Of a stretch of 54,488 bases of DNA, positions 1-19,087 are shown piece after piece (within the stretch, counting starts at the first letter, position 1; each line of letters begins with the position of its first letter). The notes below the pieces were generated by a model that was not told where the DNA came from, did no database searches, and saw nothing but the letters and a program-made list of their open reading frames with translations. Location of the stretch: IMG/VR virus record IMGVR_UViG_3300003324_000108, positions 1 to 54,488 of that record; one strand, 5' to 3'. This DNA is from a virus. Lineage: Duplodnaviria; Caudoviricetes. Made by a program: the position numbers and the translations under genes.

Positions 1-210
1 GCGGGCAACGTGTCCACACCATGCGCCACCGAAGACTCCACGTGGTGCACGTGGCACGCCGACACGCAGGGCAATGGGCAGGGTCGATCCTTCGTCACAT
101 TGTGGGACGGGGCGACGATCTACCTCCCGTAGGGACAGGGCCCTTTCCGGGCCCCGATCCCGACACGACATACGCGGCTAGGCGCGTCAATACCTACGCG
201 ATTGCACAAT

Positions 211-247
211 GACAATTCCATAGCGATTTAGATAGATCCTCGGTGTC
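211..247. repeat. left copy of 37-bp inverted repeat flanking gene 1
   Basis: GACAATTCCATAGCGATTTAGATAGATCCTCGGTGTC matches the reverse complement of 1121-1157 at 32/37 positions (manual alignment). Confidence 0.9.
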
Positions 248-326
248 TGCACAACCGAATATCGGCAACACCTGTTCACACACATCACACAATGACACGC
301 AAAATGCGTGCGGAAGGAGGGACATT

Positions 327-1094
327 ATGTCCACCAAGCAGAACACCAAGACCATTTCCCGCGAGGCCCTCGCCGACACGTCGAACGAGGAGCTGGCGCG
401 TAGCGTCGCCGCCGAACTCGTCGCATCGTTCTCGGCTGGGAACATGTCGGCGAAGGAGCGCACGTTCGAGCAGGCGCGTATCGCCTACGCGGGCAACCAG
501 TCCGGCGCAACCGACGCCGACGTGGCGCGGGAGACGACCGTCGCGCTGGCCGCGACGTTCCCGAAGGCCCAGCAGGAATGGGCGCGGGAGACCAGCGTCA
601 GCAAGGGCGGGGCCTCCGTAACCCGCGTGACGATCACCCAGCGCCGCACGGCGTGGAGCGACGTCACCGATGCGGGCATGACGCCGACGCTGGAGGCTGT
701 CGCCGCCGCGTTCGCGCTCACCAGCGCCGGGGCGAAGGGTCTCGCCGAACTCCGCAAGGAGCTCATCGAAGACACGAAGAAGCAGGCGAAGGCGCGTCGT
801 GAGGCGTTCTACGTCAAGCAGTCCTTCGAGCGCTTCCAGGAGCTGGTCGCGAAGAACAAGGCAGCGTCGAAGCGCGCCGAGAACGCCGCGACCGCGTCGG
901 CTGACGAGAAGGCCGAGTCCGTCTCGTTCGAGGTCACCCTCGACACTGTGGAGGACATCGCCGCCTACGTGGCCGCCACCGTGGCGCGTCGCTGGTCGGA
1001 GGACGAGGCTGCTCGCCTCGCCGTCATCTTCACCGATGCGACGGAGCGCCTGACCGGTTTCGTCGCGGACGAGGCCGAGGAGGACGCCGCCTGA
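327..1094 (+). CDS. hypothetical Ala-rich helical protein (gene 1)
   Basis: ORF 243..1094; start chosen at ATG 327 after strong RBS GGAAGGAGG; ends in hairpin GCCGCCT-GAC-AGGCGGC (1086-1102). Confidence 0.85.
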   Translation: MSTKQNTKTISREALADTSNEELARSVAAELVASFSAGNMSAKERTFEQARIAYAGNQSGATDADVARETTVALAATFPKAQQEWARETSVSKGGASVTRVTITQRRTAWSDVTDAGMTPTLEAVAAAFALTSAGAKGLAELRKELIEDTKKQAKARREAFYVKQSFERFQELVAKNKAASKRAENAATASADEKAESVSFEVTLDTVEDIAAYVAATVARRWSEDEAARLAVIFTDATERLTGFVADEAEEDAA

Positions 1095-1120
1095 CAGGCG
1101 GCTGTCCCCCACCACACACG

Positions 1121-1157
1121 GGCACCGAGGATCTATCTAGACCGCTATGGGATTGAC
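1121..1157. repeat. right copy of 37-bp inverted repeat flanking gene 1
   Basis: GGCACCGAGGATCTATCTAGACCGCTATGGGATTGAC; its outer end is the -35 hexamer of the next promoter. Confidence 0.9.
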
Positions 1158-1182
1158 TCCAGGATGCACTACCGTATAGCAT
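1153..1182 (+). promoter_or_regulatory. SigA-like early promoter overlapped by palindromic operator copy 1 (1164-1182)
   Basis: TTGACT-18bp-TAGCAT; operator ATGCACTAC-C-GTATAGCAT. Confidence 0.75.
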
Positions 1183-1194
1183 CCTGAGGGAAAC

Positions 1195-1221
1195 ACAAGG
1201 GAAGGGAAGGCCCACATCATG
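1195..1221 (+). repeat. start-associated motif ACAAGGGAAGGGAAGGCCCACATCATG (other copies 1799-1814, 2085-2110, 2791-2810)
   Basis: near-identical extended purine tract plus ATCATG immediately before four early start codons. Confidence 0.85.
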
Positions 1222-1689
1222 ACCACCACACTGCACGGCACGGCTCCGGAGATCCTCCGCATCCCCGCCGATATTCACGCCAAGGCGCTCGCGGCGAACC
1301 TCGTCGCCGAAGTCCGCGCGCACCAGCCTGCAGGGCACGAGTACAGCGGGTACTTCACGTACACGCTCTCGAAGGTCGCAATCGTCGCAGGAGCGCCGGA
1401 CCTGATTTCCATGGTCCGCGGCGTTGTGTCCTCACAGGAGCGCGCCTGGAGCGCCATGCGCGAGGCGCTGGATGGGCTGTTCCCGAGGGCGGAGCGCCTG
1501 CAATGCGACCATGACCGCGCATGCAGGGAGCTGGTCGGCCACATTGACGACAGCGGGTATGTCTACTGCCTGCGTCACGGGCTGGACCGCGCACGCATGG
1601 GACACCGCACGCGCCTGCTGTCCGCCGCTGAGGCGGAGCACATCATGATGGGCGGGACTATCGCCTTCGACGCCCCGGAGGGCCTCTAG
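1219..1689 (+). CDS. hypothetical protein with C-terminal Cys/His cluster
   Basis: ORF with start-associated motif; CDHDRAC...YCLRH. Confidence 0.8.
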   Translation: MTTTLHGTAPEILRIPADIHAKALAANLVAEVRAHQPAGHEYSGYFTYTLSKVAIVAGAPDLISMVRGVVSSQERAWSAMREALDGLFPRAERLQCDHDRACRELVGHIDDSGYVYCLRHGLDRARMGHRTRLLSAAEAEHIMMGGTIAFDAPEGL

Positions 1690-1811
1690 GCGGGCTGGGA
1701 ATGGCTGGTGTGCGTGTTCGTCATCACACACCTGCCTCTCGCGGTCGGCATGGCCGCTGTCCTACGCGGGCAGCTGGCTGACAAACGATCATCACTCAGG
1801 AAGGGAAGATC

Positions 1812-2066
1812 ATGAGTGCAATCACCGTTCAGCGCGTTGTGCGCACGCTCCCCAGCCGCTGGGTTGCGACCGTCGTCTTCGACCGCGGGAACGCCGTCTG
1901 GACAGAGCGCGTCGCGTTCAGCCGCACGCTCACCGGGGACCGGACCATGATCGTCAGCGTCACCGATGACGACTATCCAGACGACCGCCAGGAGCGGCTG
2001 TTCGTCAACTCCAGGCGTGACATGCGCCAGCTGATCCGCGACTACCTGATCGCCGGACGCTGGTGA
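1812..2066 (+). CDS. hypothetical protein
   Basis: ORF preceded by GGAAGGGAAGATC. Confidence 0.8.
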   Translation: MSAITVQRVVRTLPSRWVATVVFDRGNAVWTERVAFSRTLTGDRTMIVSVTDDDYPDDRQERLFVNSRRDMRQLIRDYLIAGRW

Positions 2067-2107
2067 CAGGGACCTGTCAAACAAACAAGGGAAGGGAAGC
2101 CCACATC

Positions 2108-2617
2108 ATGGGAAAGGCAATCAAACTGGGCCGTACGATGCACGGGGAGACCGTGTTCGTGGAGATCCGTATCGACCAGCCGCGCGATGGACGCGAGGTG
2201 CAGTACGTCGATCACACGTTCGCCAAGCCGCCTGTCGAAGTCGGAATCCAGTTCACGGTCATCGGCAAGGGTGCACCCAACCTCCCGCTCAACGAGACCC
2301 CCGATGGATGGTGGCGTCAGAGTGGGCAGGTGCCTCCGGAGGACCGTGTCATCGTCACCGAAAAGCATCCTGACCTGGACTTCATCGAGGAGGTCTGGGA
2401 CAGGTATCACCTGAACACGATGCGCGCCGGGTGCGAGCACATGACCGAGGAGATGCTGGCCCGTCGCGAGGGTGAAAACACCCACGACTGGCAGACCCGC
2501 ATGCTGGGCGAGTGCAAGTGCCCTGTCACCGGGTACACCTGGGGCCACGCCTGGCTCGCGACCCACGTGCCCGACGAGGTCATCGAACGGCTCACCCAGA
2601 TCGTGCAGGGCGCGTGA
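2108..2617 (+). CDS. hypothetical protein (YHLNTMRAGCEHM...CPVTGYTWGHAWL)
   Basis: ORF 2063..2617; start at ATG 2108 after start-associated motif. Confidence 0.8.
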   Translation: MGKAIKLGRTMHGETVFVEIRIDQPRDGREVQYVDHTFAKPPVEVGIQFTVIGKGAPNLPLNETPDGWWRQSGQVPPEDRVIVTEKHPDLDFIEEVWDRYHLNTMRAGCEHMTEEMLARREGENTHDWQTRMLGECKCPVTGYTWGHAWLATHVPDEVIERLTQIVQGA

Positions 2618-2718
2618 TGGGGCCGCGTAAGCGCAGGGTCCACTGGGATCTCGTACTCGTCGCCCTGGTCACTGGCGTCGCCGCCAGTGCCATGCTCACC
2701 TGGGGTTTCGGTCAATGA
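2617..2718 (+). CDS. small membrane protein
   Basis: TGATG coupling; basic N-terminus plus one hydrophobic helix. Confidence 0.65.
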   Translation: MGPRKRRVHWDLVLVALVTGVAASAMLTWGFGQ

Positions 2719-2740
2719 AAATCCCAGGTGAGCACATGAT

Positions 2741-2777
2741 TTGACTGCTAGTCAAGTCGTGTACTACCGTAGTGCAT
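2741..2777 (+). promoter_or_regulatory. promoter-like region with operator copy 2 (2759-2777)
   Basis: TTGACT inside palindrome TTGACT-GCT-AGTCAA; operator GTGTACTAC-C-GTAGTGCAT; -10 hexamer unclear. Confidence 0.65.
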
Positions 2778-2807
2778 CATCCAAAATTCCAAGGGAAGGA
2801 AATCATC

Positions 2808-3020
2808 ATGGCAATCACGGTCAGCTCTTTCGATCTGCCCCAGGCGGTCGGTGTCACGGTCGTCTCCAGCGACAATCGCGAGCGTGTCGACTACCTCCTG
2901 GGCATCGCGCAGAAGGAGGAGAACGGTCCCTACACAGTCGAGGTGATGAAGGTCGGCTGGGTCAAGGGCGAGCGGGACGAGGGGGAGATCCTGCTCTCGG
3001 TCCCCGTGGGGGTGCAGTGA
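2808..3020 (+). CDS. hypothetical protein
   Basis: ATG 2808 after AAGGGAAGGA. Confidence 0.8.
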   Translation: MAITVSSFDLPQAVGVTVVSSDNRERVDYLLGIAQKEENGPYTVEVMKVGWVKGERDEGEILLSVPVGVQ

Positions 3021-3340
3021 TGGGCTACTTCGTCCGTCCCCTCAAGCGGGAATCCTCCGCAGGCATCGTCATCCACGCGGAAGACGAACACGACAAGCGC
3101 GCCGAGGCGTACCTGCTCGGCCTGCGCAAAGACGGCGTGGTCGAGCTGATCCGCGTCCCCCTCGGGCAGGCCGAAGCTGAACTCGGCGAGTTCAACAACG
3201 ACGTGGAGATGCTCTTCGAGTACGCCTCGCCGCTCGCGGAGAAGCTGGAGCAGGAAGACAGGGACAGTGACCTGTCGCCCGAGGAGATCCAGAAGGCAAT
3301 CGACGCCATGCTAGCCGGGGAAGAAGGTGGGGGGTCATGA
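3020..3340 (+). CDS. hypothetical acidic protein
   Basis: TGATG coupling; 3' part of ORF 2741..3340. Confidence 0.75.
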   Translation: MGYFVRPLKRESSAGIVIHAEDEHDKRAEAYLLGLRKDGVVELIRVPLGQAEAELGEFNNDVEMLFEYASPLAEKLEQEDRDSDLSPEEIQKAIDAMLAGEEGGGS

Positions 3341-3663
3341 CCGCCTACCGGATCAAGTCCCGCTTCGTGAACATGGAGAAGGCGCACGTCAGCCTGCGCT
3401 CCTACGATGACGGATCCACAGCCCTCGTCGCCGAAGAACTCGTGCAGGAAGACGGCTACACCGAGCTGGATCGGGAGACCCTGAGCGTCAACCTCGGCGC
3501 ATACGGCATGTACCCTCCCCTGGGCCACGTGTACGTGCGCAACTACGCCGAACACGAAGGGCTCCCGCAGGCGCTCGCTGACGCTGGGATCGTGCGGCTC
3601 GTGGAGCCGATCACCTTCGGCCCGTTCAACGTGGCCGGGTATCTCGTGGAGGTGACACTGTGA
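3337..3663 (+). CDS. hypothetical protein, possibly DUF4313-like
   Basis: ATGA coupling; LSVNL...VYVRNYAEHEGLPQALADAGI. Confidence 0.7.
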   Translation: MTAYRIKSRFVNMEKAHVSLRSYDDGSTALVAEELVQEDGYTELDRETLSVNLGAYGMYPPLGHVYVRNYAEHEGLPQALADAGIVRLVEPITFGPFNVAGYLVEVTL

Positions 3664-3995
3664 CCTGGAGCTTCGATCACGTTAGTAGCGAGCACAATCC
3701 CGCAGTGGGCAGGGAAATGCGGATGGACGTAGCCCAGCGTCCCAGTGTCGAACAATTCCTGGCGCTCCCCAATGACACCGAGATCTACGCCGTGGAAATC
3801 GGCCCCTTCGGTCTCGGCGTTTCCATGCAGGGGCTCATCATGAGTGATGCGAACCGGGAATTGTCCCGGGAATGGGCGAAGGAAACGGGAAATGACAGCA
3901 TGCCATTCCAGTTCATGTTCTACCTGCTCCCGGACGGGTATGACATCACCGCAGAAATGCACAACAAAGGAGAGGGAAATGCCGTACCAGACTGA
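3660..3995 (+). CDS. hypothetical protein
   Basis: GTGA coupling. Confidence 0.7.
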   Translation: MTWSFDHVSSEHNPAVGREMRMDVAQRPSVEQFLALPNDTEIYAVEIGPFGLGVSMQGLIMSDANRELSREWAKETGNDSMPFQFMFYLLPDGYDITAEMHNKGEGNAVPD

Positions 3996-4497
3996 GACAC
4001 TCGTGAACCGCAACCAACACCTGGACCCCATCCAGGTGGACATGCAACCCACCCTGGAAAGCGTTCTGGCACTGGAGCCACCGTTCTCCTTTCACCTGAT
4101 CGGCACACTGGATGGGCCGGATGGGAAGTTCGAGCAGGTTCACGTCGGGCTCGGCGTTCGCACGGAGGCTCAGGCCGTGATGTTCCGCGAGAGAATGCGG
4201 ACCTGGCCCGTGCCGTGGGATGTCACCATCGCCTTCTGGTCGAAACTGGCTGACGAGGAGGAGCAGCCGCTGACCCCTGTCGTGGACATTTCCGGACGGC
4301 TCGCTCCGGGGGAGATCGCGGACACAATCATCCAGACCTACCTCGAAACCCAGCGGGAGTACGAGGAGGACATGTCCGTGAAGAAGCAGCTCCAGGAGGC
4401 TATCGACTCCGGGATGCTCAACGCCGACGACCTCCACCAGCTGCTCCGGGATGCGGTGAAGTCGGCACGCACCGGCTGGCAGCGCAAGCCGTTCTAG
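3979..4497 (+). CDS. hypothetical protein
   Basis: ATG 3979 after GGAGAGGG; 3' part of ORF 3844..4497. Confidence 0.75.
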   Translation: MPYQTETLVNRNQHLDPIQVDMQPTLESVLALEPPFSFHLIGTLDGPDGKFEQVHVGLGVRTEAQAVMFRERMRTWPVPWDVTIAFWSKLADEEEQPLTPVVDISGRLAPGEIADTIIQTYLETQREYEEDMSVKKQLQEAIDSGMLNADDLHQLLRDAVKSARTGWQRKPF

Positions 4498-4500
4498 ATC

Positions 4501-4597
4501 CCTGGGTGGGGTGTCAATCCTTCCCTTCCGCACCTCACCCAGGCCACCTGGGACCGCCTTACGGTGCCCCGCAGATGTGTCATCGTGGGGCGGTCCC
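4501..4597 (+). ncRNA. candidate structured RNA: two hairpins, first loop complementary to the early start-associated motif
   Basis: stem CCTGGGTGGGGTG/CACCTCACCCAGG with loop TCAATCCTTCCCTTCCG; second stem GGGACCGCCTTACGGTG/CATCGTGGGGCGGTCCC; mismatches are G-U on the + strand. Confidence 0.55.
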
Positions 4598-4663
4598 CCA
4601 ACATCTTTGATATCCCGTTTTCAGTCAACGAATATCGACAACATCACGGTCGAAAGGACCACC

Positions 4664-5281
4664 ATGACAACCGCAATCGAAAGTTACCTGTCGGCCCTGG
4701 GCTGCGTCATCGAGATCATCGAGTACGAGATCGCTATCGGACGTACCGCATCCCACACGCTGGGAGTCGTCATGCCGAACGACATGGAGAAGGGCTGGAA
4801 CTGGGAGATCTCGTTCGCCATCGGGACGGATACCTTCTACCAGACTCACACTGTCGCCTGCGTTGACGGCATGATTTCCCTTCCCGGACTGGTCCCGATC
4901 CTGGCGAAGAAACAATCCCCGCTGCGACTGAACTCGCTCATCTGCGCATCAATCCTCGGCGTGCAGGAGATCCCCGCACCCAGCCGTCGCGCTATCCGCC
5001 AGGCGGAGCAGGCGGCGGCGCTCATCGTCGCGCAGGAACTCAAAGCCGCGCTGGCTACCGGCAACATCGATGATCGGTTCTTCGCCCGCGAGGACGAGGC
5101 TGAGGTGTGGGACGAGATCGTCACCATGGCGGATATCCCCCACCCTTACGGACGGATGCGGACCAACTCCATCCCCTCGTACCTGCTGTCGGCATTCGAT
5201 GACGTCTACTACGAGGCGGCATCGGAGGCTATCGGTGCCAAGTGCGCCGCGGCTCGTCGCCGTCTGGGGGTGCAGGCGTGA
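4664..5281 (+). CDS. hypothetical protein
   Basis: ATG 4664 after GAAAGGA. Confidence 0.8.
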   Translation: MTTAIESYLSALGCVIEIIEYEIAIGRTASHTLGVVMPNDMEKGWNWEISFAIGTDTFYQTHTVACVDGMISLPGLVPILAKKQSPLRLNSLICASILGVQEIPAPSRRAIRQAEQAAALIVAQELKAALATGNIDDRFFAREDEAEVWDEIVTMADIPHPYGRMRTNSIPSYLLSAFDDVYYEAASEAIGAKCAAARRRLGVQA

Positions 5282-5595
5282 GCAAGTACGACAACATCGC
5301 CACGCTCAAGTCCAACCTCGCATTCCACGAGGAGATGGCCCGGAGGCTTCGGGACAGGCTGGAGCGCACGCTTCCGAAGGAGCCGGAAAAGGGAACTGTC
5401 ATCAAGTTCCTGGTGCAGTTCCCGCCGCGCCCCGTTACCTACCAGTACTGGGCCGCTCGTTTCCATGACAAGCTGTGGACCATCACTGGCAAGGAGGGCG
5501 CGTACACCTGGCCCGAGGTAGTGGCGTTCATGCGCCTGGATGAGGGTATCCAGATGGGCGCGCGCAAGGTCGAGTTCTCGGTGGTGGGGAAATGA
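5278..5595 (+). CDS. hypothetical protein (paralog of 12053..12325)
   Basis: GTGA coupling; GTVIKF...YQYWAAR...WTITG. Confidence 0.75.
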   Translation: MSKYDNIATLKSNLAFHEEMARRLRDRLERTLPKEPEKGTVIKFLVQFPPRPVTYQYWAARFHDKLWTITGKEGAYTWPEVVAFMRLDEGIQMGARKVEFSVVGK

Positions 5596-5981
5596 TCGTC
5601 ACCCGCAGGACCATCGTGAAGGGTGCCGCATGGAGCATCCCGGTCATCATGGCCGCAACCGCCGTACCGCACGCCGCCGCCAGCGCACAGCCGGGGAACG
5701 CATGCCTGCGGTTCATTGGGAGCAACTTCACCCGCGATGGGCTCAAGGTGAAGGTGCAGAACCAGTGCGGCATGATCGCTCGTGACGTGCAGATCATCGT
5801 GTCCTACGAGAACGGACAGGCTGCTGTCGCTCGCGTCTTCCCACAGGGGGAGCTCGACCCTCACGCTCATGCTCCCGCGGAGCACCTGCGCCTGGATGAC
5901 ATTCCCGACGAGATCAGTCAGGTGACTGTCACTGTCAAGGCGGAGAACGCCGATGCTGTGACTGAGGTGTTCACCCGTTGA
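5592..5981 (+). CDS. secreted protein with twin-arginine-type signal peptide
   Basis: N-terminus TRRTIVKGAAWSIPVIMAATAVPHAAAS. Confidence 0.7.
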   Translation: MIVTRRTIVKGAAWSIPVIMAATAVPHAAASAQPGNACLRFIGSNFTRDGLKVKVQNQCGMIARDVQIIVSYENGQAAVARVFPQGELDPHAHAPAEHLRLDDIPDEISQVTVTVKAENADAVTEVFTR

Positions 5982-5993
5982 TCATCCCCCGAT

Positions 5994-6025
5994 TTGACAC
6001 TATGTATTACCGTATGCCATAGTGT
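5994..6025 (+). promoter_or_regulatory. SigA-like promoter with operator copy 3 (6002-6020)
   Basis: TTGACA-18bp-CATAGT; operator ATGTATTAC-C-GTATGCCAT; arms extend to ACACTATG/CATAGTGT. Confidence 0.8.
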
Positions 6026-6057
6026 TATACATCAGGTCGTTCCGATCCGGCCTGGTG

Positions 6058-6103
6058 AAGGACCGCATCGCCTCCCACACACTCGGGCGGTGCGGTCCTT
6101 TTT
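6058..6103 (+). terminator. intrinsic terminator directly downstream of promoter (predicts ~75-nt RNA)
   Basis: 16-bp stem AAGGACCGCATCGCCT/GGGCGGTGCGGTCCTT followed by T-run. Confidence 0.75.
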
Positions 6104-6131
6104 CCTACCCCCGATGAAAGGGCACTGACCA

Positions 6132-6773
6132 ATGTCGGCAGTCATCACCATGCTCCCGAACGACCTCCGGGACATGACGGCAGCTCTTGTCCCGCACGCC
6201 GAGGACCACAGGAAGAGCATCACCCCCATCCTCCAGTGCATCCACATCGACCCCACTAAGGGCAACTACGCCTGGGCCACCAACAGGTACACCGCAGGCC
6301 GGTTGAACCTGCGGGCGTTCGACAAGCTGGTCATGCCCGAGGAGCCCATGCTGATCCCCGCCTACGTGCTGACCATCCTCAGCCGCATCGGACCCGGAAC
6401 CCTGCCCGCACCGTTCGAGCAGTACGTGATCCGCATCGAGGAGACCGCGAAGGGAATCGTCACGCAGTTCGTGTGGGCCTCGGAGGACAAGGAGCTGGAG
6501 GAGGTCCACTGGCAGCGTGTGTTCTTCCTGCACGGCAGGTACGGTGACTTCCCACCCGTCCAGAAGCTGTTCGACAAGTTCCAGGAGACCGAAGTCCCCA
6601 CGAAGATCGCGGTGAACGGTGACGGCTTGGACACCTTCGTCAACTACGCGATGCGTAAGCATCTGCCGGTGCGGTTCACGGCGGACGGTGGCAAGAATAC
6701 GAACCCGATCCTCGTGGAGATCGGCACCGAGTTCCGCGGGCTCATCGCGCCCAGCATTCGAGGTGAGTTCTGA
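6132..6773 (+). CDS. DNA polymerase III beta-clamp-like protein
   Basis: PILQCIHI, WATNRYTAG, FPPVQKLF, FRGLIAP motifs resemble phage sliding-clamp-like proteins. Confidence 0.7.
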   Translation: MSAVITMLPNDLRDMTAALVPHAEDHRKSITPILQCIHIDPTKGNYAWATNRYTAGRLNLRAFDKLVMPEEPMLIPAYVLTILSRIGPGTLPAPFEQYVIRIEETAKGIVTQFVWASEDKELEEVHWQRVFFLHGRYGDFPPVQKLFDKFQETEVPTKIAVNGDGLDTFVNYAMRKHLPVRFTADGGKNTNPILVEIGTEFRGLIAPSIRGEF

Positions 6774-7195
6774 TGCGCGTCACAGTCCGCGGTGAACAGG
6801 TCGAACTGCACGGCACCGCCAGTGCCAACGCGATCTTCGGCGACTTCCCCAAAGCCATGGAACCCTACGGGGTTGTCATCGCCAGCGACGGGTACACGCA
6901 GGAGGAGCTGACAGTCGCCTGTCGCCACGTCCTGGCCGTCATGTTCGGCGACCACGAGGCGGGCGAACAGCCCGGAGGTTTCATCACCTCCCTCATCGAG
7001 ACCATCCTCCGCGCCGATGCATCCAACGCACAGCGCCTCGCCCTCGGCTTCCCCGCGTACACCGCGGCGGTGGAGCTGTACAAGACCGTGCCCTACGGAG
7101 AAGACGCGCTCCGTGTTTGGGCCACACAGACCCCCGCCACCACTCCCGGTGACGGGTCATCCCCGAAAGAAGAGAAAGAAGACAGCAATGGCTGA
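6773..7195 (+). CDS. hypothetical protein
   Basis: TGATG coupling; PGGFITSLIETILRADASN. Confidence 0.75.
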   Translation: MRVTVRGEQVELHGTASANAIFGDFPKAMEPYGVVIASDGYTQEELTVACRHVLAVMFGDHEAGEQPGGFITSLIETILRADASNAQRLALGFPAYTAAVELYKTVPYGEDALRVWATQTPATTPGDGSSPKEEKEDSNG

Positions 7196-8687
7196 CACCA
7201 CCACCCAGAACCTGCCGGACATCACCACGCTCATGGCGCAGGTGATCGCGGAGACGCAGAAGGCGGACTTCGGCGCGAAGGTCATCACCGGAGACGAGGT
7301 CGAGTTCCACGACGGAACCAAGATCGGCCTGCCGAAGGGCATGACCTACACCAAGGCGAAGAAGGTGCTCACCCGTCTGGAGGAGGAGGCAGAGACGCCG
7401 ACCCACTTCCTCCAGGACTTCCGCTACCGTCCCGACGACGGCGCGTACGCTGCGCTCCAGGTCATCAAGAAGCGCTGGGGCATGGCGCTCGGCAAGGTGC
7501 AGCACACCTTCTTCGGCACCATCCCGGCGTCGAAGCGCACGATCAACATCGGCGTGGGCCAGACGATGCAGGTTCCGTGGGGCCTGCTGGAAGTCCCGAT
7601 CTTCGAGGGGCTGGAGCTGTACCTGGACCAGGTCCGCGACCGTGACTACGGCATCATCTTCCGCATCCACGGCAAGGGCCCGCGCAAGTACCAGGACGAG
7701 ATCCAGGGCTTCTTCGATGATGTGGAGGACTACCTGCGCACCAACTCCATCTACCGCGGGCGTGCCATCGTCGGCTCCGACGACCCGGAGTTCCTCGACA
7801 CGAGCAACTTCGACGCCTCGAAGATCATCTTCTCCGACGAGGTCACGGCGACGCTGAACGGGACGCTGTTCGCGCCGATCCGCTACACCGACGCCATGCG
7901 CCGGGAGGGTGTGCCGCTCAAGCGCGCCCTGCTGCTGGAGGGCCCGTACGGTACGGGCAAGACCTCTGTCGGCCAGATGACGGCCCAGGTCGCCACCGAC
8001 AATGGCTGGACCTTCATCAGCGCCAAGCCCGGTCGCGACAAGGTCGAGGATGTGCTGCGTACCGCTCGCCTCTACCAGCCCGCCGTCGTGTTCATCGAGG
8101 ACATCGACACCGAGGCGAACAACGGCGAGGCCGACGCGGTCACGAAGCTGCTGGAGGCGTTCGACGGCATCACCAGCAAGGGCGGGGAACTCCAGATCGT
8201 CATGACGACGAACCACCTGGACCGCATCCACAAGGGCATGCTCCGCCCGGGTCGCCTCGACGCTGTCGTGCACATCGGCTCGCTCGACCGCAACGGCGTG
8301 GAGCGTCTGTGCCGCGTCGTGATCGATGAGTCGCACCTCGACGCGGATGTGGACTTCGACGCCGTCTGGGAGGCCATGGAGGGCTTCCTCCCGGCGTTCG
8401 TGAAGGAGTCCATCACCCGTGCGGTGACGTTCGCCATCGACCGCCTGGAGGGTGGCCGTGGTTACAGCATCGCGACCGCCGACCTGGTCAACGCGGCGCA
8501 CTCCCTGCGTCCGCAGCTCGACGCGCTGAACGACGCCGGGGAGGGCACGCGCAAGCCGACCCTCGATGCCGCCCTGGCCAACACGGTCAAGACGGCGCTG
8601 AACCAGATGAGCACCTACGACCCCAACTACGAGGTGCACTCGCGCATCGAGGAGCTGGACAGCGAGGGCAACGTCATCGAGAAGTGA
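7188..8687 (+). CDS. AAA+ ATPase (classical AAA clade, no protease domain)
   Basis: Walker A GPYGTGKT, Walker B VFIEDID, second region of homology TTNHLDRIHKGMLRPGRLD. Confidence 0.9.
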   Translation: MADTTTQNLPDITTLMAQVIAETQKADFGAKVITGDEVEFHDGTKIGLPKGMTYTKAKKVLTRLEEEAETPTHFLQDFRYRPDDGAYAALQVIKKRWGMALGKVQHTFFGTIPASKRTINIGVGQTMQVPWGLLEVPIFEGLELYLDQVRDRDYGIIFRIHGKGPRKYQDEIQGFFDDVEDYLRTNSIYRGRAIVGSDDPEFLDTSNFDASKIIFSDEVTATLNGTLFAPIRYTDAMRREGVPLKRALLLEGPYGTGKTSVGQMTAQVATDNGWTFISAKPGRDKVEDVLRTARLYQPAVVFIEDIDTEANNGEADAVTKLLEAFDGITSKGGELQIVMTTNHLDRIHKGMLRPGRLDAVVHIGSLDRNGVERLCRVVIDESHLDADVDFDAVWEAMEGFLPAFVKESITRAVTFAIDRLEGGRGYSIATADLVNAAHSLRPQLDALNDAGEGTRKPTLDAALANTVKTALNQMSTYDPNYEVHSRIEELDSEGNVIEK

Positions 8688-8693
8688 CAGGCC

Positions 8694-8767
8694 CCTGGCA
8701 CCCTGAACACCTGTCCCCTAGCTGGGTGAGCAGGGTGCCAGGTTCTGAGTACCTCTTTCGGGGGTAC
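8694..8767 (+). terminator. hairpin pair after ATPase gene
   Basis: CCTGGCACCCTG...CAGGGTGCCAGG (8694-8742) and GTACCTC-TTTCG-GGGGTAC (8749-8767); no strong U-tail. Confidence 0.5.
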
Positions 8768-8795
8768 GTGATCTGACGTACGGAGCCCGCAGGTT

Positions 8796-8814
8796 CTGCA
8801 CTACCGTGTAGCAT
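8796..8814 (+). promoter_or_regulatory. operator copy 4 overlapping -10 TAGCAT
   Basis: CTGCACTAC-C-GTGTAGCAT, 6 bp before ATG 8821 (possibly leaderless transcript). Confidence 0.7.
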
Positions 8815-8820
8815 GAGGAC

Positions 8821-9225
8821 ATGGATCGCAGGCCCATCACGGTCGCCGAACTGATCGAGGCGCGCATCACATTCGTGGGCTCGTGCTGGATCTGGGACGG
8901 CTATCTTCTTGATGGGCGTCCTGTGATTGCATCCTCTACCGGAACCGTAGGCGTCATTTCACTCCTGTGGACGCAGAAGAACGGCCCTGTACCTAAGGGC
9001 AAAGTTCTTATCTGCGACCACCCTCGGGCCGGGTCGGACGTGTGTGTCAATCCTGACCACTACCGACCCGGCCTGGGGAATCCGGGCGGCCCCAATGTGT
9101 GCCGCTTCGGGCACGATCTCTCTGACGAGGTCAACGTCTGGTACTCGGGTGGTAAGCGCTACTGCCTGCTGTGCATGACGAGACGGAAGGTAGGAAGTCC
9201 AAGACCCCGTCCCGAAAGGAAGTAG
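8821..9225 (+). CDS. HNH/His-Me endonuclease-like Zn-binding protein
   Basis: CWIWDG, GPVPKG, CVNPDH, CRFGH, CLLC. Confidence 0.7.
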   Translation: MDRRPITVAELIEARITFVGSCWIWDGYLLDGRPVIASSTGTVGVISLLWTQKNGPVPKGKVLICDHPRAGSDVCVNPDHYRPGLGNPGGPNVCRFGHDLSDEVNVWYSGGKRYCLLCMTRRKVGSPRPRPERK

Positions 9226-9226
9226 C

Positions 9227-9538
9227 ATGCCTGGTCTGCCCATCCACTCCCTCTGGATCGACCCGTATTTGCGGGCCGCCCTCAGGGAGTACGCATACAA
9301 CAAGCGCACTTCCATGTCGGATGTTGTCCGTGCCGTCTTCCGGGACATCGTCCGAAACCCCAACAATGAAAGCGTTCTGGCACCCGATGGTGCCACCGCA
9401 ACGTTCCGCCTGTCCGTGAAGATGGAGGACGAGCTGTGGGATGAGGCACGCGAGGCCGCTCGTGGTGCCGGTCACAGCCTCAACAGTCTCGTCCGCCGTC
9501 GCCTGCGGAAGGTCATGATCGAAGAAGGATTGCTATGA
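9227..9538 (+). CDS. tandem ribbon-helix-helix DNA-binding protein
   Basis: two RHH-like units: HSLWIDPYLRAALREYAY...SMSDVVRAVF and LSVKMEDELWDEAREAAR...SLNSLVRRRL. Confidence 0.8.
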   Translation: MPGLPIHSLWIDPYLRAALREYAYNKRTSMSDVVRAVFRDIVRNPNNESVLAPDGATATFRLSVKMEDELWDEAREAARGAGHSLNSLVRRRLRKVMIEEGLL

Positions 9539-9804
9539 CCAACGTCAACCCCGTGTCCAAGTCCGAGGATCTCCGCGAGAGTGCCGAGCGACTGGTTCTC
9601 TCCATCGAAAACGAGGTGTCGGCCTTCGAAGGATACGACCGCGTCCATACCCTGGGTGTCATCGCCGACCTCAAGCAGCGAGCGCTGGAGCTGGAGCAGC
9701 AGGAGATCGCCAACCTCCTGCGCGTGGTCGAGTCCGAGGTGTTCCCCAACGAGATCCGCGTCGAGGCTGCCCGCATCGTGCAGAAGGTTCTGGAGCTGGG
9801 CTGA
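9535..9804 (+). CDS. hypothetical protein
   Basis: ATGA coupling. Confidence 0.75.
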   Translation: MTNVNPVSKSEDLRESAERLVLSIENEVSAFEGYDRVHTLGVIADLKQRALELEQQEIANLLRVVESEVFPNEIRVEAARIVQKVLELG

Positions 9805-9805
9805 C

Positions 9806-10045
9806 ATGGCTACCTTCATGGCAACGTTCGGGGTGCAGTACAAGACCGTGCCGCACCCCAGTGGCCTGGACGCTAACCCGGACGGGTATGTGCGCATCGA
9901 GGCTCCGAACTACGACCTCGCCGTCGAGGCGATGCAGGCCGTCTACGGGGTCGAGTACGCGTTCATCTATCGGGAGGAAGATTTCGCGTACGAATACCAC
10001 CCGGACGGCGTCATCAACGAGATCAGTGTGATGGGGAGCGCGTGA
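9806..10045 (+). CDS. hypothetical protein
   Basis: 3' part of ORF 9581..10045. Confidence 0.7.
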   Translation: MATFMATFGVQYKTVPHPSGLDANPDGYVRIEAPNYDLAVEAMQAVYGVEYAFIYREEDFAYEYHPDGVINEISVMGSA

Positions 10046-10206
10046 TGGCAGGCGACAACAGGAAAATCGCTGAGGATATCATCGACTCAGCCGAGCTAAT
10101 GAGTGCCGAGGGGTTGCGTGCGGAGGTTATTGCCCGAGCGATCCTCGACGTTGCCGATGCAATCCGGGAATCAGCGCGTGCGCAGATGACAATGAGGGGC
10201 TTGTGA
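10045..10206 (+). CDS. small hypothetical protein (53 aa, not in ORF track)
   Basis: TGATG and GTGA coupling on both sides; MAGDNRKIAEDIID... Confidence 0.65.
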   Translation: MAGDNRKIAEDIIDSAELMSAEGLRAEVIARAILDVADAIRESARAQMTMRGL

Positions 10207-10871
10207 CAGGAATCCTTTTCGATGATGAGCTGACCACCATCATCCATGGCAAATGGCAGGACCACCTCGACATCATCGCCGAAGCTAACGTGCTCATAAC
10301 CGATCCTCCATATGGGATGCAGTACGTGAGCAACTCGTCCAAGCTTGGGCCGACCGCACCCGTGCGAGGAGACCAGGACACGGACGAGCGTGATGGCCTG
10401 CTGGAGGAGTGGTACGCGCAGGGCAACCGGCCCGCCATTGTGTTCGGCACCTGGCGAGTCCCCCGTCCCGCGTTCCCCGTCCGTCAGCTTCTCGTGTGGC
10501 ACAAGGGCGACAGCCCCGGCATGGGAGACCTGACCCTGCCGTGGGGCCCCAGCCACGAAGAGATCTACGTGATGGGTGGCCTGGGTCCGGAGCATTGGAC
10601 GGGCAAGCGCGGCCCGAGTGTGATCCGTTCGCGGGTGTCCGAGGGCAACGCGAAGGGTGAGCGCGACAGGCACGGGCACCCCACCCCGAAACCTGTTCTG
10701 CTCATGCAGGACATCATCAGCCACACCACGGGGAGCCTGATCCTTGACCCGTTCCTGGGATCTGGGACCACGTGTGTGGCAGCAAGGCTTCTCGGTCGCC
10801 GTAGCGTCGGCATCGAGATGGATCGCGGCTACGCGGAAGCTGCGGTCGAGCGCGTGAAGCGGATTTCATAA
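10203..10871 (+). CDS. DNA methyltransferase, N6-A/N4-C beta class
   Basis: DPPY motif before HPTPKP and DPFLGSGTT. Confidence 0.92.
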   Translation: MTGILFDDELTTIIHGKWQDHLDIIAEANVLITDPPYGMQYVSNSSKLGPTAPVRGDQDTDERDGLLEEWYAQGNRPAIVFGTWRVPRPAFPVRQLLVWHKGDSPGMGDLTLPWGPSHEEIYVMGGLGPEHWTGKRGPSVIRSRVSEGNAKGERDRHGHPTPKPVLLMQDIISHTTGSLILDPFLGSGTTCVAARLLGRRSVGIEMDRGYAEAAVERVKRIS

Positions 10872-10891
10872 CCCCGCGGAACCGCAACAGG

Positions 10892-10926
10892 GAACCCCCG
10901 GTCATGGCATAGGCCGGGGGTTCTTC
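10892..10926 (+). terminator. intrinsic terminator-like hairpin
   Basis: GAACCCCCGGTC/GGCCGGGGGTTC + TT. Confidence 0.65.
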
Positions 10927-10944
10927 AACCCCGAAGGAGAAAAC

Positions 10945-11322
10945 ATGTCGAAGTTTGTTGATGACGCAGCCGAGTTCATCGCCGGGGCTCAGCCCGATCA
11001 TGACTGCTCGCGGGACAGAACCTGCAAGGTGTCGCCCGCGTACTACCTGATGATGCACGAGAGGCCGGATGGAGAGACCATCATCGTCACTCACGGCGTG
11101 CACCAGATGAACGCGAAGCAGGTGATGGAACTCATGATCCAAGCTGTGGAGCAACTGTTCATCGACGCAGCGGACGGACAGATCCCCGACTTCATCGCTG
11201 TCATGGAGGCCCGACGCAGGTTCCGGGACGCTCTGGATGAAGCGTCCCTCAGCGAGGAGGGGAAATCCTCCATCGCAGAGTTCCTTTCCCGCCTCATGGA
11301 GGGTCGTGGCGAAGATGTGTGA
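10945..11322 (+). CDS. hypothetical protein
   Basis: RBS GAAGGAG. Confidence 0.8.
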   Translation: MSKFVDDAAEFIAGAQPDHDCSRDRTCKVSPAYYLMMHERPDGETIIVTHGVHQMNAKQVMELMIQAVEQLFIDAADGQIPDFIAVMEARRRFRDALDEASLSEEGKSSIAEFLSRLMEGRGEDV

Positions 11323-11701
11323 GGCGCGGCATGGGTCGGCAACCATCACGTTCAGCTATGACGTGTGTGCAGAGCATGATGCAGTCAGGTTCACGGGTGG
11401 AACCATGGAGGTCATCGGCGTCGGCCCCGTGGATGTCGTGGACGGAATGCTCTCGTATTGCGAATACCTGATCTCGAACATGATCGAGGGGCGCGAAGAC
11501 ATTTCCGAACTGCTTTCCTCGACATTCCCTTCCGCCGTGAAGAAGAGCAATGGGGACTGGTCTTTCAATGACGAGGACAAGCATTTCCTCCTCAATCTAC
11601 TGGCGCATAATCTCCTGATGCGCCAGGTTGTCAGCCGTGAATACCCGAGGGGTGGCAAGGGAGCAATCCTGGATATGACCCCCCGCGATGACCACGGCTG
11701 A
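11315..11701 (+). CDS. hypothetical protein
   Basis: 3' part of ORF 11237..11701. Confidence 0.7.
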   Translation: MCEARHGSATITFSYDVCAEHDAVRFTGGTMEVIGVGPVDVVDGMLSYCEYLISNMIEGREDISELLSSTFPSAVKKSNGDWSFNDEDKHFLLNLLAHNLLMRQVVSREYPRGGKGAILDMTPRDDHG

Positions 11702-11721
11702 TCTTCGGGGATGAAGAGAAA

Positions 11722-11759
11722 GCCCCCCGGGTGTGTCTAGGTCAGCATGCCCGGGGGGC
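11722..11759. terminator. GC-rich hairpin
   Basis: GCCCCCCGGG...CCCGGGGGGC. Confidence 0.55.
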
Positions 11760-11786
11760 GAGTTGAAATCACAAGGGAGTGGAGTC

Positions 11787-12044
11787 ATGACTATTTCGGA
11801 AAGCAGTTCCACACCATCCGGGTGGTATCCGCACCCGGAGGGAAAGCCCGCTGTCATGTGGTGGGACGGGAATGCTTGGGACGTTTCCCGGCAGCGCTGG
11901 TTTGGTGCTGTTGTGGAGCCTCAGCAGACCGTGATCGTGAACCAGCGGAAACAGGTGAACCATGCTTTGCACCTGATCCTCACGTTGCTGACGTGTGGGT
12001 TGTGGCTGCCGGTGTGGATCATCGTCGCCATTGCAAAAAGCTAG
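11787..12044 (+). CDS. DUF2510-like small membrane protein
   Basis: PSGWYPHPEG...WWDGNAW and NHALHLILTLLTCGLWLPVWI. Confidence 0.75.
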   Translation: MTISESSSTPSGWYPHPEGKPAVMWWDGNAWDVSRQRWFGAVVEPQQTVIVNQRKQVNHALHLILTLLTCGLWLPVWIIVAIAKS

Positions 12045-12052
12045 GAGGAGAA

Positions 12053-12325
12053 ATGTCAGAGAAGGCTGCGAAGTATCTGACGAAGGAGATCGCGAAGCGC
12101 ACACCGAAGGTGGAGGAGAACACCATCGTGCGTTTCAAATCGCGTGGCCGCAACGGGATCGACTACACCTACGCCGCCCTGTGGGTGGCCGGGTTCTGGT
12201 GGATCACGGGCGTCGCGAACTACTTCGGCGGCACGAAGCTGACGAATGAGCGCTTCCTGGAGATCGTGTCCGATGGGACGATCTTCGGCATCGAGGTGGC
12301 CGACAGCTTCGTCATCGTCAAGTAG
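12053..12325 (+). CDS. hypothetical protein (paralog of 5278..5595)
   Basis: RBS AGGAGG; NTIVRF...YTYAAL...WWITG. Confidence 0.8.
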   Translation: MSEKAAKYLTKEIAKRTPKVEENTIVRFKSRGRNGIDYTYAALWVAGFWWITGVANYFGGTKLTNERFLEIVSDGTIFGIEVADSFVIVK

Positions 12326-12333
12326 GCAAAGAA

Positions 12334-12374
12334 CTAGCCGCCTGGTCTTCCAAGAGATGGAACCAGGCGGCTAG
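12334..12374. terminator. hairpin before replication genes
   Basis: CTAGCCGCCTGGT/ACCAGGCGGCTAG perfect 13-bp stem. Confidence 0.6.
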
Positions 12375-12450
12375 GCTGATGTTTGTTCACGACACCACGG
12401 TGACAGCATACCTGTCGCGTGGTGTCGTAGCGCAACCCGCGAAGGAAAAC

Positions 12451-13218: not shown

Positions 13219-13630
13219 GACGAAGAAGCTTCTGATGCGGGTCAACGTCCATGACAACCGCAAGGTGGATGGCCTGGTTGTCGAACACTGGGCGGATATC
13301 CTTCGCGACTACACCGAGAAGGAGTGCATGGCTGCGTTGCGGTGGTTCATCATGACGAACACCGAGGACTACCTCAAGCCTGCTCACCTCGTGCAGTACA
13401 TGAACCAGCGTCGCCGTGAGCATGCCTGGGCGAATCCGGCGATGGAGGCGGGGAAGTATTTCCTCGACGGTTGGGTGGACCAGGACGAGGCGATCCAGCG
13501 TGCGTCCGAGGAGAACCGCAGGCTGCGGGGTGGCAAGCCCACCGCCGTCGATGTCGCCGAGTCGTACACCAAGGAAGAACTCGAAGAGTTCAAGGGCATG
13601 ATGATCCCCCCGCCCGAGGGGTTGGGCTGA
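13205..13630 (+). CDS. probable helicase loader/inhibitor (G39P-like)
   Basis: follows initiator; ETKKLL...DNRKVD...WADILRDY...YLKPAHL. Confidence 0.6.
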   Translation: MNFDETKKLLMRVNVHDNRKVDGLVVEHWADILRDYTEKECMAALRWFIMTNTEDYLKPAHLVQYMNQRRREHAWANPAMEAGKYFLDGWVDQDEAIQRASEENRRLRGGKPTAVDVAESYTKEELEEFKGMMIPPPEGLG

Positions 13631-13750
13631 GACACCACCCCTGCGTCACGCCAGGGGGGCTACGAGCGCCGATCACACCCCACCTGGCCCAACTACACCA
13701 GCCCGCAATTTCTAGGCCGTTAGCAAGCCCTTACCCGAAAGGTCACTGTC

Positions 13751-15190: not shown

Positions 15191-15191
15191 C

Positions 15192-19010: not shown

Positions 19011-19011
19011 T

Positions 19012-19041: not shown

Positions 19042-19087
19042 ATGTACAGGACCCAAGGTCCAATAATCTACAACGAGGGAGCTGTAA

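What the first reader, a model, noticed from the sequence alone, without database searches (positions are those of the whole stretch)
4501..4543. Candidate phage sRNA whose loop is antisense to the ribosome-binding motif of the earliest genes
Seen: an intergenic 13-bp stem (its one mismatch is a G-U pair on the + strand) displays the loop UCAAUCCUUCCCUUCCG. Its reverse complement CGGAAGGGAAGGA matches 10-11 nt of the purine tracts before four upstream start codons: GGAAGGGAAGG (gene 1219), GGAAGGGAAG (1812 and 2108) and AAGGGAAGGA (2808). A second long hairpin follows (4550-4597). Known: trans-acting sRNAs use pyrimidine-rich loops to occlude Shine-Dalgarno regions, e.g. staphylococcal RNAIII and actinobacterial 6C RNA. 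Inference: this is a phage-encoded matched sRNA/target-tag system that shuts off translation of a tagged set of immediate-early genes once transcription has passed 4.5 kb, acting as a timing circuit. It might also silence host mRNAs with GAAGGGA-type RBSs. I know of no described example in actinophages, but I could not search.
Basis: partly seen in the sequence, partly recalled or inferred. Interest (0 to 1): 0.85.

Follow-up and report, generated by a model that had tools for sequence, protein, structure and literature searches.

The report
Hairpin loop antisense to early RBSs
An uncultivated actinobacterial phage carries, just after an early gene block, a stable RNA hairpin whose exposed loop is the exact complement of an unusual ribosome-binding motif shared by four early genes; cultured mycobacteriophages show the same layout, which gives a testable idea for their long-unexplained start-associated sequences.

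Summary
Positions 4501-4543 fold into a 14-bp stem with a 15-nt pyrimidine loop, followed by a stronger hairpin at 4550-4597. The loop is the exact complement of GGAAGGGAAG(G), which otherwise occurs only 3-8 nt before the ATGs at 1219, 1812 and 2108, with a 10-nt variant before 2808. That is 4 hits against 0.09 expected.

The element starts 4 nt after a stop codon, has no detectable promoter of its own, and sits where other hairpins in this phage end transcription units. It therefore looks like an operon 3' end, not a separate sRNA gene. No RNA data exist, and its only relatives lack the region.

New support comes from Cluster K mycobacteriophages. The single reverse-oriented start-associated sequence (SAS) noted in 2011 lies in the loop of a conserved hairpin, in the gap where late transcription of Adephagia is reported to start. 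There are counter-examples: Marshawn and AnnaSerena have SAS but no antisense loop, and Amgine and Unicorn have loops that are only partly complementary.

My best reading, at about 0.4, is a terminator-type 3' hairpin doubling as an anti-RBS RNA. A plain terminator with a fortuitous loop is nearly as likely. I rate it a new variant of a known kind, interest 0.62.

The parts
4501..4543 (+). Hairpin 1. Stem 4501-4514 / 4530-4543; loop 4515-4529 (CAAUCCUUCCCUUCC), the exact antisense of the start-proximal motif.
   Evidence: -25.3 kcal/mol as + RNA against -20.5 as - RNA; loop unpaired probability 0.94.: minus-strand motif hit at 4520-4529.
4550..4597 (+). Hairpin 2. A 17-bp stem with several G.U pairs. 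With hairpin 1 it forms a tandem stem-loop module after the stop codon at 4495-4497.
   Evidence: -34.3 kcal/mol as + RNA against -26.2 as - RNA.
4607..4635 (+). Weak sigma-A-like promoter candidate, TTGATA (4607-4612) - 17 nt - GAATAT (4630-4635), ahead of gene 4664-5281. This is my own reading and falls below the scan tool's threshold.
   Evidence: sequence; not listed.
1195..1210 (+). Tag 1, ACAAGGGAAGGGAAGG, 8 nt before ATG 1219. It follows promoter P1 (TTGACT 1153 - 18 nt - TAGCAT 1182).
   Evidence: (D6)
1799..1808 (+). Tag 2, GGAAGGGAAG, 3 nt before ATG 1812.
2085..2099 (+). Tag 3, ACAAGGGAAGGGAAG, 8 nt before ATG 2108. No promoter lies in the 41-nt gap.
   Evidence: (D6)
2789..2800 (+). 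Tag 4, CCAAGGGAAGGA, before ATG 2808. It lies downstream of a promoter-family copy at 2741-2777.
   Evidence: (D3, D6)
3979..4497 (+). Last gene before the hairpins (172 aa, orphan). Its stop codon is 4 nt before hairpin 1.
4664..5281 (+). First gene after the hairpins (205 aa, orphan). RBS GAAAGGA.
2692..2731 (+). Comparable hairpin that closes the first transcription unit, just before the second promoter copy. It supports an end-of-unit role for such hairpins.
   Evidence: -20.4 kcal/mol
8694..8742 (+). Comparable hairpin directly after gene 7017-8687 and before the promoter-family copy at about 8797.
   Evidence: I21, D3; -33.8 kcal/mol

Best explanation
Two tandem stem-loops mark the 3' end of the second early transcription unit, which runs from the promoter near 2741 through genes 2808-4497. 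They act as a terminator, as a 3'-end protecting structure, or both. The first hairpin holds a 15-nt single-stranded pyrimidine loop that is the exact antisense of a phage-private, SAS-like ribosome-binding motif. That motif precedes four unrelated early genes.

I infer that the hairpin-bearing 3' end, or a processed fragment of it, pairs with these initiation regions. This would out-compete the 16S anti-SD and lower translation of the tagged genes as the RNA accumulates.

Shown: the structure, its strand bias, loop accessibility, the complementarity and its statistics, its position at a unit end, and a parallel layout in Cluster K mycobacteriophages.

Inferred: that the RNA exists as a stable species, that pairing occurs, and the direction of the effect.
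For: - Structure and loop accessibility.
- The G.U pairs make both hairpins 5-8 kcal/mol more stable as + strand RNA. This points to an RNA element and not a DNA palindrome.
- Motif enrichment is 4 hits against 0.09 expected. All 3 plus-strand copies and the 10-nt variant lie 3-9 nt before an ATG, both behind promoters and inside an operon.
- The tagged genes are not paralogues.
- Shuffled-loop control: 0.42%.
- Duplex energies are -17.0 to -22.0 kcal/mol for the four tags, against -9.8 to -12.3 for the recalled anti-SD motif.
- Hairpins at 2692 and 8694 sit in the same stop-codon-to-promoter position.
- Independent parallel in Anaya. The only reverse SAS copy (1 of 16 hits) is the loop of a hairpin in the 385-nt non-coding gap between gp96 and gp97.
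- Adephagia has the same hairpin in its gene 92-93 gap. PMC11373665 (passage read) reports that late transcription appears to start in that gap.
- The Cluster K region is conserved in 182 records. Its hairpin has 7 of 21 pairs with compensatory changes in 14 sequences.
Against: - There is no RNA evidence of any kind for this phage.
- No promoter is seen upstream, and no U-tract follows either hairpin, so neither a discrete sRNA nor termination is shown.
- The motif is a low-complexity pentamer repeat, (AAGGG)n, which arises by chance more easily than a complex word. Single 10-mer complements occur in 24% of shuffled loops.
- Energy-only scans rank other G-rich sites nearly as high.
- The module and both flanking genes are absent from the 97%-complete relative G002, which also lacks the motif.
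- In Cluster K the antisense loop is dispensable. Exact complement was seen in 7 of 18 genomes examined, other pyrimidine loops in 4, and none in 7.
- Marshawn keeps 17 SAS copies with a non-complementary loop.
- Amgine and Unicorn keep the K-type SAS, but their loops are CUUCCCUUCCCU and UCUCCCUUCCCA.
- AnnaSerena has SAS copies but no antisense copy.
Confidence: 0.4

Rival explanations
1. The element is a plain intrinsic terminator or 3'-end stabiliser. The tandem hairpins only end or protect the early transcript. The match between loop and RBS is a by-product of low-complexity pyrimidine sequence and has no function.
For: - It sits directly after a stop codon, as the hairpins at 2692, 8694 and 10890 do.
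- G002 has a post-stop hairpin followed by a similar pyrimidine tract, CCCCCTCCCTTTCCCTTCCC, with no matching RBS family.
- Amgine carries almost the same loop without a matching SAS.
- The motif is a pentamer repeat.
Against: - A 15-nt loop is unusual for a terminator, and no U-tract follows.
- Only 0.42% of composition-matched loops hit a 10-mer present 3 or more times.
- The Cluster K1 loop matches a complex, non-repetitive SAS.
Confidence: 0.33
2. The loop is a general pyrimidine-rich (anti-SD-like) loop with a different partner. It mimics the 16S 3' end and binds SD regions in general, host ones included, or it binds a host protein that prefers C/U-rich single strands. The exact match to the four tags is secondary.
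For: - Loops of the homologous Cluster K hairpin vary but stay pyrimidine-only in 4 further genomes.
- The window loop also matches 9 nt at the RBS of gene 9535 and pairs well with the RBSs at 327 and 3337.
Against: - The exact 10-11 nt matches are confined to the four tags.
- 7 of 18 Cluster K genomes have no pyrimidine loop at all.
- The host is unknown.
Confidence: 0.12
3. GGAAGGGAAGG is an orientation-independent DNA site for a phage or host protein, and its place in a hairpin loop is incidental.
For: - G002 carries a pervasive 12-mer, AAGCRTGCTKAC (51 hits against 0.46 in shuffles). It looks like a protein site of the stoperator kind.
- Promoter-linked inverted repeats exist in the window.
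Against: - All 4 plus-strand copies sit 3-9 nt from an ATG whether or not a promoter is near.
- The fifth copy sits between arms whose G.U pairs favour the + strand RNA.
- There are only 5 copies.
Confidence: 0.07
4. It is a stand-alone trans-acting sRNA gene with its own promoter.
For: Two consecutive strong hairpins resemble the body of an sRNA.
Against: - The hairpin starts 4 nt after the stop codon.
- No promoter-family copy or sigma-70-like site lies in 4400-4500.
- No Rfam family matches.
Confidence: 0.05

Closest known systems
Start-associated sequences (SAS/ESAS) of Cluster K mycobacteriophages, including their single reverse-oriented copy (PMC3203893, passages read; PMC11373665, passages read)
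   Same: - An asymmetric motif longer than a Shine-Dalgarno sequence, 3-9 nt before ATG starts of non-structural genes, in one orientation.
- Some copies lie behind a promoter that carries an inverted repeat (ESAS in Cluster K; the copies at 1153 and 2741 here).
- One extra copy lies in the opposite orientation, away from any gene start.
- Shown here: in Anaya and Adephagia that copy is a hairpin loop on the sense strand, as in the window.
   Different: - The motif sequence is unrelated (GGGATAGGAGCCC against GGAAGGGAAGG).
- There are 4 copies here against 11-19.
- In Cluster K the hairpin lies in a long non-coding gap where late transcription is reported to start. Here it lies at the 3' end of an early unit.
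- The SAS function is stated as unknown in both papers.
Trans-acting sRNAs with C/U-rich loops that occlude Shine-Dalgarno regions (staphylococcal RNAIII and RsaE, actinobacterial 6C/B11). Mechanisms are recalled; only the listing of PMC10470900 was seen.
   Same: A pyrimidine loop on a stable hairpin that is complementary to purine-rich initiation regions.
   Different: - No Rfam match, 6C included.
- No own promoter.
- It is phage-encoded with phage-private targets.
- No expression data.
3'-UTR-derived regulatory RNAs of bacteria (recalled from general knowledge)
   Same: A regulatory seed carried on the terminator-proximal end of an mRNA.
   Different: Processing and stability are untested here. 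The proposed targets include the first gene of the same operon.
Intrinsic terminators
   Same: G+C-rich stems directly after a stop codon and ahead of the next promoter.
   Different: The loop of hairpin 1 is 15 nt, there is no U-tract, and the hairpins come as a tandem pair.
Abundant non-coding RNAs at the right end of Cluster A mycobacteriophages L5, D29 and StarStuff (PMC5712189, passages read)
   Same: Structured non-coding RNA made by an actinophage, of unknown function.
   Different: No sequence relation, and no reported antisense relation to ribosome-binding sites.

Membership tests
Start-associated sequences (SAS-like system) | Repeated asymmetric motif, conserved beyond the SD core | tested here: met
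   10-11 nt identical at 4 starts; 4 hits against 0.09 expected.
Start-associated sequences (SAS-like system) | Located within a few nt (3-9) of the start codon, with ATG preferred | tested here: met
   Spacings are 3-9 nt, and 4 of 4 starts are ATG.
Start-associated sequences (SAS-like system) | One orientation, restricted to non-structural genes, with at most one reverse copy away from a gene start | tested here: met
   All + copies lie in 1.2-2.8 kb of the early arm. The single - copy is at 4520-4529 in the gap.
Start-associated sequences (SAS-like system) | 11-19 copies per genome, conserved across related phages | tested here: not met
   There are only 4 copies. The motif is absent from relatives G001 and G002.
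Start-associated sequences (SAS-like system) | Sequence related to the Cluster K or Cluster EF consensus | tested here: not met
   The motif is different.
Trans-acting anti-SD sRNA | Own promoter and a defined 3' end | tested here: not met
   No promoter in 4400-4500. The hairpin starts 4 nt after the stop codon. No U-tract.
Trans-acting anti-SD sRNA | Accessible seed complementary to translation initiation regions | tested here: met
   Loop unpaired probability is 0.94. Exact complements of 10-11 nt; duplexes of -17.0 to -22.0 kcal/mol.
Trans-acting anti-SD sRNA | Expressed as a stable RNA | not testable with these tools
   No RNA run is listed for this sequence.
Trans-acting anti-SD sRNA | Seed and target conserved or co-varying in relatives | tested here: inconclusive
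   The window's own lineage has no relative with the region. In Cluster K the exact antisense loop occurs in 7 of 18 genomes, while the SAS is unchanged in Amgine, Unicorn and Marshawn.
6C RNA (Rfam) | Match to the covariance model | tested here: not met
   No hit at gathering threshold or at E up to 10 in 4380-4720.
Intrinsic terminator | G+C-rich stem directly downstream of a gene | tested here: met
Intrinsic terminator | Short loop (3-8 nt) and a 3' U-tract | tested here: not met
   The loop is 15 nt. The tails are GCCACC and CCCAACAUC. Neither hairpin is listed by the scan.

The most novel reading that the evidence does not exclude
Actinophages of at least two unrelated lineages encode a structured sense-strand RNA whose hairpin loop is antisense to their own start-associated sequence. 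The lineages are this uncultivated phage and the Cluster K1 mycobacteriophages. Together the motif and the loop would form a phage-private translational switch: the 3' end of an early unit here, or the region where late transcription starts in Cluster K, shuts off the SAS-tagged non-structural genes. This would give the SAS motifs, unexplained since 2011, a mechanism.
Probability: 0.28. Interest if true: 0.8.

Novelty: new variant of a known kind. Interest (0 to 1): 0.62.

Why it matters
Start-associated sequences were described in 2011 and were still called functionally undefined in 2024 (PMC3203893 and PMC11373665, passages read). If the antisense hairpin loop is their partner, a whole class of actinophage regulation becomes testable.

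The test can be run in a tractable system. Adephagia and Anaya grow on the laboratory strain Mycobacterium smegmatis, where RNA-seq and phage recombineering already exist. The result would add a phage-private translational timer built from an RBS tag and an anti-tag RNA. Such a pair could also serve as an orthogonal part for synthetic biology.

If the loop match proves fortuitous, the locus is an ordinary tandem terminator.

Tried and rejected
**Relatives of the region**
- DNA and protein searches of the phage collection found nothing for 4300-4900, 1-20000 or the upstream gene.
- The two flanking proteins have no relatives in viral contigs.
- The alignment of the first early protein with its G002 homologue found only G002 itself in viral contigs and metagenome contigs, and nothing in genome contigs.
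- The exact 15-mer of the loop occurs in 25 viral contigs. 0 of 25 has the stem context, so these are chance hits.
- The promoter-family consensus found 0 viral contigs.

**Inverted remnant of a leader cassette.** Rejected, because the similarity stops at 10-11 nt.

**An ORF through the hairpins (GTG 4511).** Rejected on GC3: 0.63 against 0.80-0.84.

**A minus-strand RBS reading.** Rejected, because no start codon lies at a usable distance.

**RNA evidence.** No RNA holder was listed. One DNA run holds 27% of the words.

**Rfam.** No family at gathering threshold. Three weak, irrelevant hits at E 0.56-9.7.

**Energy-only target ranking.** It was not discriminating, because G-rich sites with G.U pairs score close to the tags.

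**G002.** Its pyrimidine tract has no matching RBS family.

**Pfam and PHROGs on ten early proteins.** Nothing informative. Only 3337-3663 hits two unknown-function PHROGs.

**Literature**
- Searches: 'start associated sequence' + mycobacteriophage; Cluster K + non-coding RNA + RNAseq; ZoeJ/TM4/RNAseq; SAS + phage + small RNA; 'Mycobacteriophage ZoeJ'.
- None turned up a paper that interprets the reverse SAS as an RNA.
- The ZoeJ expression paper was not in the library.
Fig. S3 of PMC3203893, which lists the reverse sites of Adephagia, Angelica and CrimD, was not seen. Anaya and Adephagia were checked directly; Angelica and CrimD were not.

**Other limits**
- The 16 Cluster K loci were picked by hand from the 60 'spread' rows of 182 records to span the identity range, so they are not a random sample.
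- The consensus fold used 14 of the 17 sequences. Keshu, MacnCheese and Pixie were left out because a longer insert replaces the hairpin there.
- An early note called the conserved Cluster K block TTGACG-N17-TAGACT. On recount the spacer is 11 nt, so it is not a canonical sigma-A spacing.

Full report
**What the window is.** The window is a whole IMG/VR virus record: 54,488 bp, classed linear, 88% complete, 62.7% G+C. Genes run on the + strand up to about 27.2 kb and on the - strand from 27.7 kb onward.

Recognisable proteins are a Toprim/AAA_25 primase-helicase and a lysin with VanY, PG_binding_1 and Rv2525c-like domains. There is also a Mu-F-like head protein. The primase-helicase has only distant relatives, all below 60% identity, in 94 phage records. 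Most of these are Gordonia (63) and Arthrobacter (16) phages. The phage is therefore an uncultivated actinophage.

All ten proteins of the first 5.3 kb are orphans in Pfam. Nine of the ten are also orphans in PHROGs.

**The observation.**
- The stem is 13 bp with one G.U pair, plus a possible closing U.G pair.
- The loop is 15 nt, CAAUCCUUCCCUUCC, and is 94% unpaired in the ensemble.
- The energy is -25.3 kcal/mol.
- A second hairpin at 4550-4597 scores -34.3 kcal/mol.
- The 4480-4640 stretch folds with z = -4.9.

Both hairpins lose 5-8 kcal/mol when the minus strand is folded. They are therefore built for the + strand RNA, the strand of all neighbouring genes.

GGAAGGGAAG occurs four times in the window against 0.09 expected. 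Three copies are on the + strand immediately before ATG 1219, 1812 and 2108. The fourth is on the - strand and is the loop. AAGGGAAGGA precedes ATG 2808.

The four leaders also share ATCATG at the start. Their proteins are unrelated, and the likeness to the loop's complement ends at 10-11 nt. Neither gene duplication nor an inverted leader cassette explains the pattern.

Shuffling the loop while keeping its composition gives a complement to a 10-mer present three or more times in 0.42% of 200,000 trials. A single 10-mer complement is common, at 24%. The multi-site match is thus unlikely by chance, but not overwhelmingly so, because the motif is a low-complexity (AAGGG)n repeat.

**Context.** A promoter-like family, TGYAYTACCGTRTRGCAT, recurs at 1165, 2760, 6003 and 8797. 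At 1153 and 5994 it is preceded by TTGACN.

Strong sense-strand hairpins sit between a stop codon and the next promoter copy at 2692-2731 and 8694-8742. Other strong hairpins follow genes at 10890 and at about 12350. A convergent terminator lies near 27.7 kb.

The 4501-4597 pair starts 4 nt after the stop codon of gene 3979-4497. A weak TTGATA-17-GAATAT candidate and gene 4664 follow it. No promoter-like site lies in 4400-4500, and the gap is non-coding by GC3.

The simplest anatomy is the 3' end of the transcription unit that begins near 2741. It does not look like a separate sRNA gene. Against a classical terminator, the loop is 15 nt and neither hairpin has a U-tract.

**Relatives.** Only two related records exist in the collections searched. 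G002 is 59,902 bp and 97% complete. G001 is a 33-kb fragment that lacks the early region.

G002 is syntenic, with the early region at 49.9-59.9 kb. However, it lacks the two genes flanking the hairpins, the hairpins themselves and the GGAAGGGAAG motif. Its homologues of genes 327 and 1812 use other RBSs.

G002 has its own pervasive 12-mer, AAGCRTGCTKAC, with 51 hits against 0.46 in shuffles. It also has one post-stop hairpin followed by CCCCCTCCCTTTCCCTTCCC, with no matching RBS family. Loop/target co-variation therefore cannot be tested in this lineage. No RNA run holds the sequence.

**A parallel in cultured phages.** The start-proximal motif behaves like the start-associated sequences (SAS) of Cluster K mycobacteriophages. 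These are 13 bp (GGGATAGGAGCCC), lie 3-7 bp before mostly ATG starts of non-structural genes, and face one way. Their function is unknown.

[quoted passage not shown] It leaves open whether SASs bind an RNA or a protein (PMC3203893, passages).

I located that site in Anaya. It is the only minus-strand hit among 16, and it lies in the 385-nt unannotated gap between gp96 and gp97. There it forms the loop, CCUCCUAUCC, of a hairpin on the sense strand (z = -4.0).

Adephagia has the same hairpin in its gene 92-93 gap. [quoted passage not shown] Whether the hairpin lies inside that late transcript is not shown.

The gap is conserved in 182 Cluster K records, most of them unannotated there. In 14 aligned sequences the hairpin is the consensus structure, and 7 of 21 pairs carry compensatory changes.

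**Results against a strict anti-SAS model.**
- Of 18 Cluster K genomes examined (hand-picked to span the identity range), 7 carry the exact complement in the loop: Anaya, Adephagia, LastHope, YoureAdopted, Validus, Niklas and LilPharaoh.
- 4 carry other pyrimidine-only loops: Ekdilam, Amgine, Unicorn and Shandong1.
- 7 carry none: Marshawn, Nibb, Yuna, SirPhilip, Keshu, MacnCheese and Pixie.
- Amgine, Unicorn and Marshawn all keep 17-18 K-type SAS copies. The loop therefore does not co-vary with the SAS, and the SAS persists without it.
- Amgine's loop, CUUCCCUUCCCU, is nearly the window's loop, yet its SAS is different.
- The Microbacterium phage AnnaSerena has 9 copies of its own SAS but no antisense copy.

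**Mechanism.** The tag contains GAAGGGA and GGGAAGG. By my own pairing with the recalled 16S 3' end, these can form about 7 pairs including wobbles, so the tag is a working SD.

The loop pairs with the four tags at -17.0 to -22.0 kcal/mol. The same sites score -9.8 to -12.3 with the anti-SD motif. Most untagged neighbours pair with the loop less well than, or about as well as, with the anti-SD motif.

I therefore favour, at about 0.4, a terminator-type 3' hairpin that also acts as an anti-RBS RNA. It would lower translation of the three genes of the first unit and the first gene of its own unit as it accumulates. A plain terminator with a fortuitous loop is almost as likely (0.33). Lesser rivals are:
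- a general pyrimidine loop with another partner (0.12);
- a DNA protein-binding site (0.07);
- a stand-alone sRNA gene (0.05).

**Comparison and novelty.** The locus works like anti-SD sRNAs with C/U-rich loops, but it matches no Rfam family and lacks its own promoter. The tags meet the positional criteria of SAS but not the copy number or the conservation.

The link between a start-associated motif and a sense-strand hairpin loop carrying its complement, seen in two unrelated lineages, did not appear in the literature I could search. I rate it a new variant of a known kind. Its interest is 0.62, mainly because it makes the SAS question directly testable in Adephagia or Anaya on M. smegmatis.

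Noticed in passing
L040 29751-29915 (Anaya record about 59,750-59,914); L062 1948-2379 (Adephagia gene 92-93 gap): Conserved non-coding module of Cluster K mycobacteriophages. It consists of a U-tract terminator, an invariant block TTGRCG-N11-TAGACT, and three hairpins. The third hairpin shows the reverse SAS (CCUCCUAUCC) in its loop. The module is present in 182 records and mostly unannotated. It lies in the gap where Adephagia late transcription is reported to start.
   Followed up: partly
G002 (L033-L035), whole record: A 12-mer, AAGCRTGCTKAC (core palindrome GCATGC), occurs 51 times with up to 1 mismatch, against 0.46 in shuffles. It is mostly on the + strand. Some copies lie right before start codons and some just upstream of promoter-like sites. 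It is reminiscent of stoperator-type repressor sites and is absent from the window.
   Followed up: partly
window 213-245 and 1123-1155: A 33-nt inverted repeat, 91% complementary, flanks the first gene (327-1094). The right arm abuts the -35 of the promoter at 1153. The left arm may belong to a leftward promoter. It is a candidate operator pair.
   Followed up: no
window 1165-1182, 2760-2777, 6003-6020, 8797-8814: Four copies of TGYAYTACCGTRTRGCAT, a promoter-linked family with a near-palindromic core (CTACCGTAG-like). G002 has similar copies at about 51,255 and 59,740. At 1153 and 2741 it precedes the tagged RBSs, like ESAS before SAS.
   Followed up: partly
window 9524-9532: The RBS of the gene starting at 9535 (GAAGGATTG) is a 9-nt complement of the 5' half of the same loop (CAAUCCUUC). 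It is a possible fifth target.
   Followed up: no
window 6096-6123; G002 59,257-59,290: Sense-strand pyrimidine tracts lie a few nt upstream of the next gene's SD: UCCUUUUUCCU before GAAAGGG, and CCCUUUCCCUUCCC before GAGAAAG. They could sequester that SD in cis.
   Followed up: no
window 27,680-27,745: A very strong hairpin (CAGACGAAAGCCCCC...GGGGGCUUUCGUCUG) lies where the + and - strand gene arms converge. It is a likely bidirectional terminator.
   Followed up: no
window 2692-2731 and 4501-4543: Both end-of-unit hairpins share CCTGGG...GTCAAT...CCCAGG, and hairpin 2 begins with CACCTGGG. This may point to a common origin or a shared recognition element.
   Followed up: no
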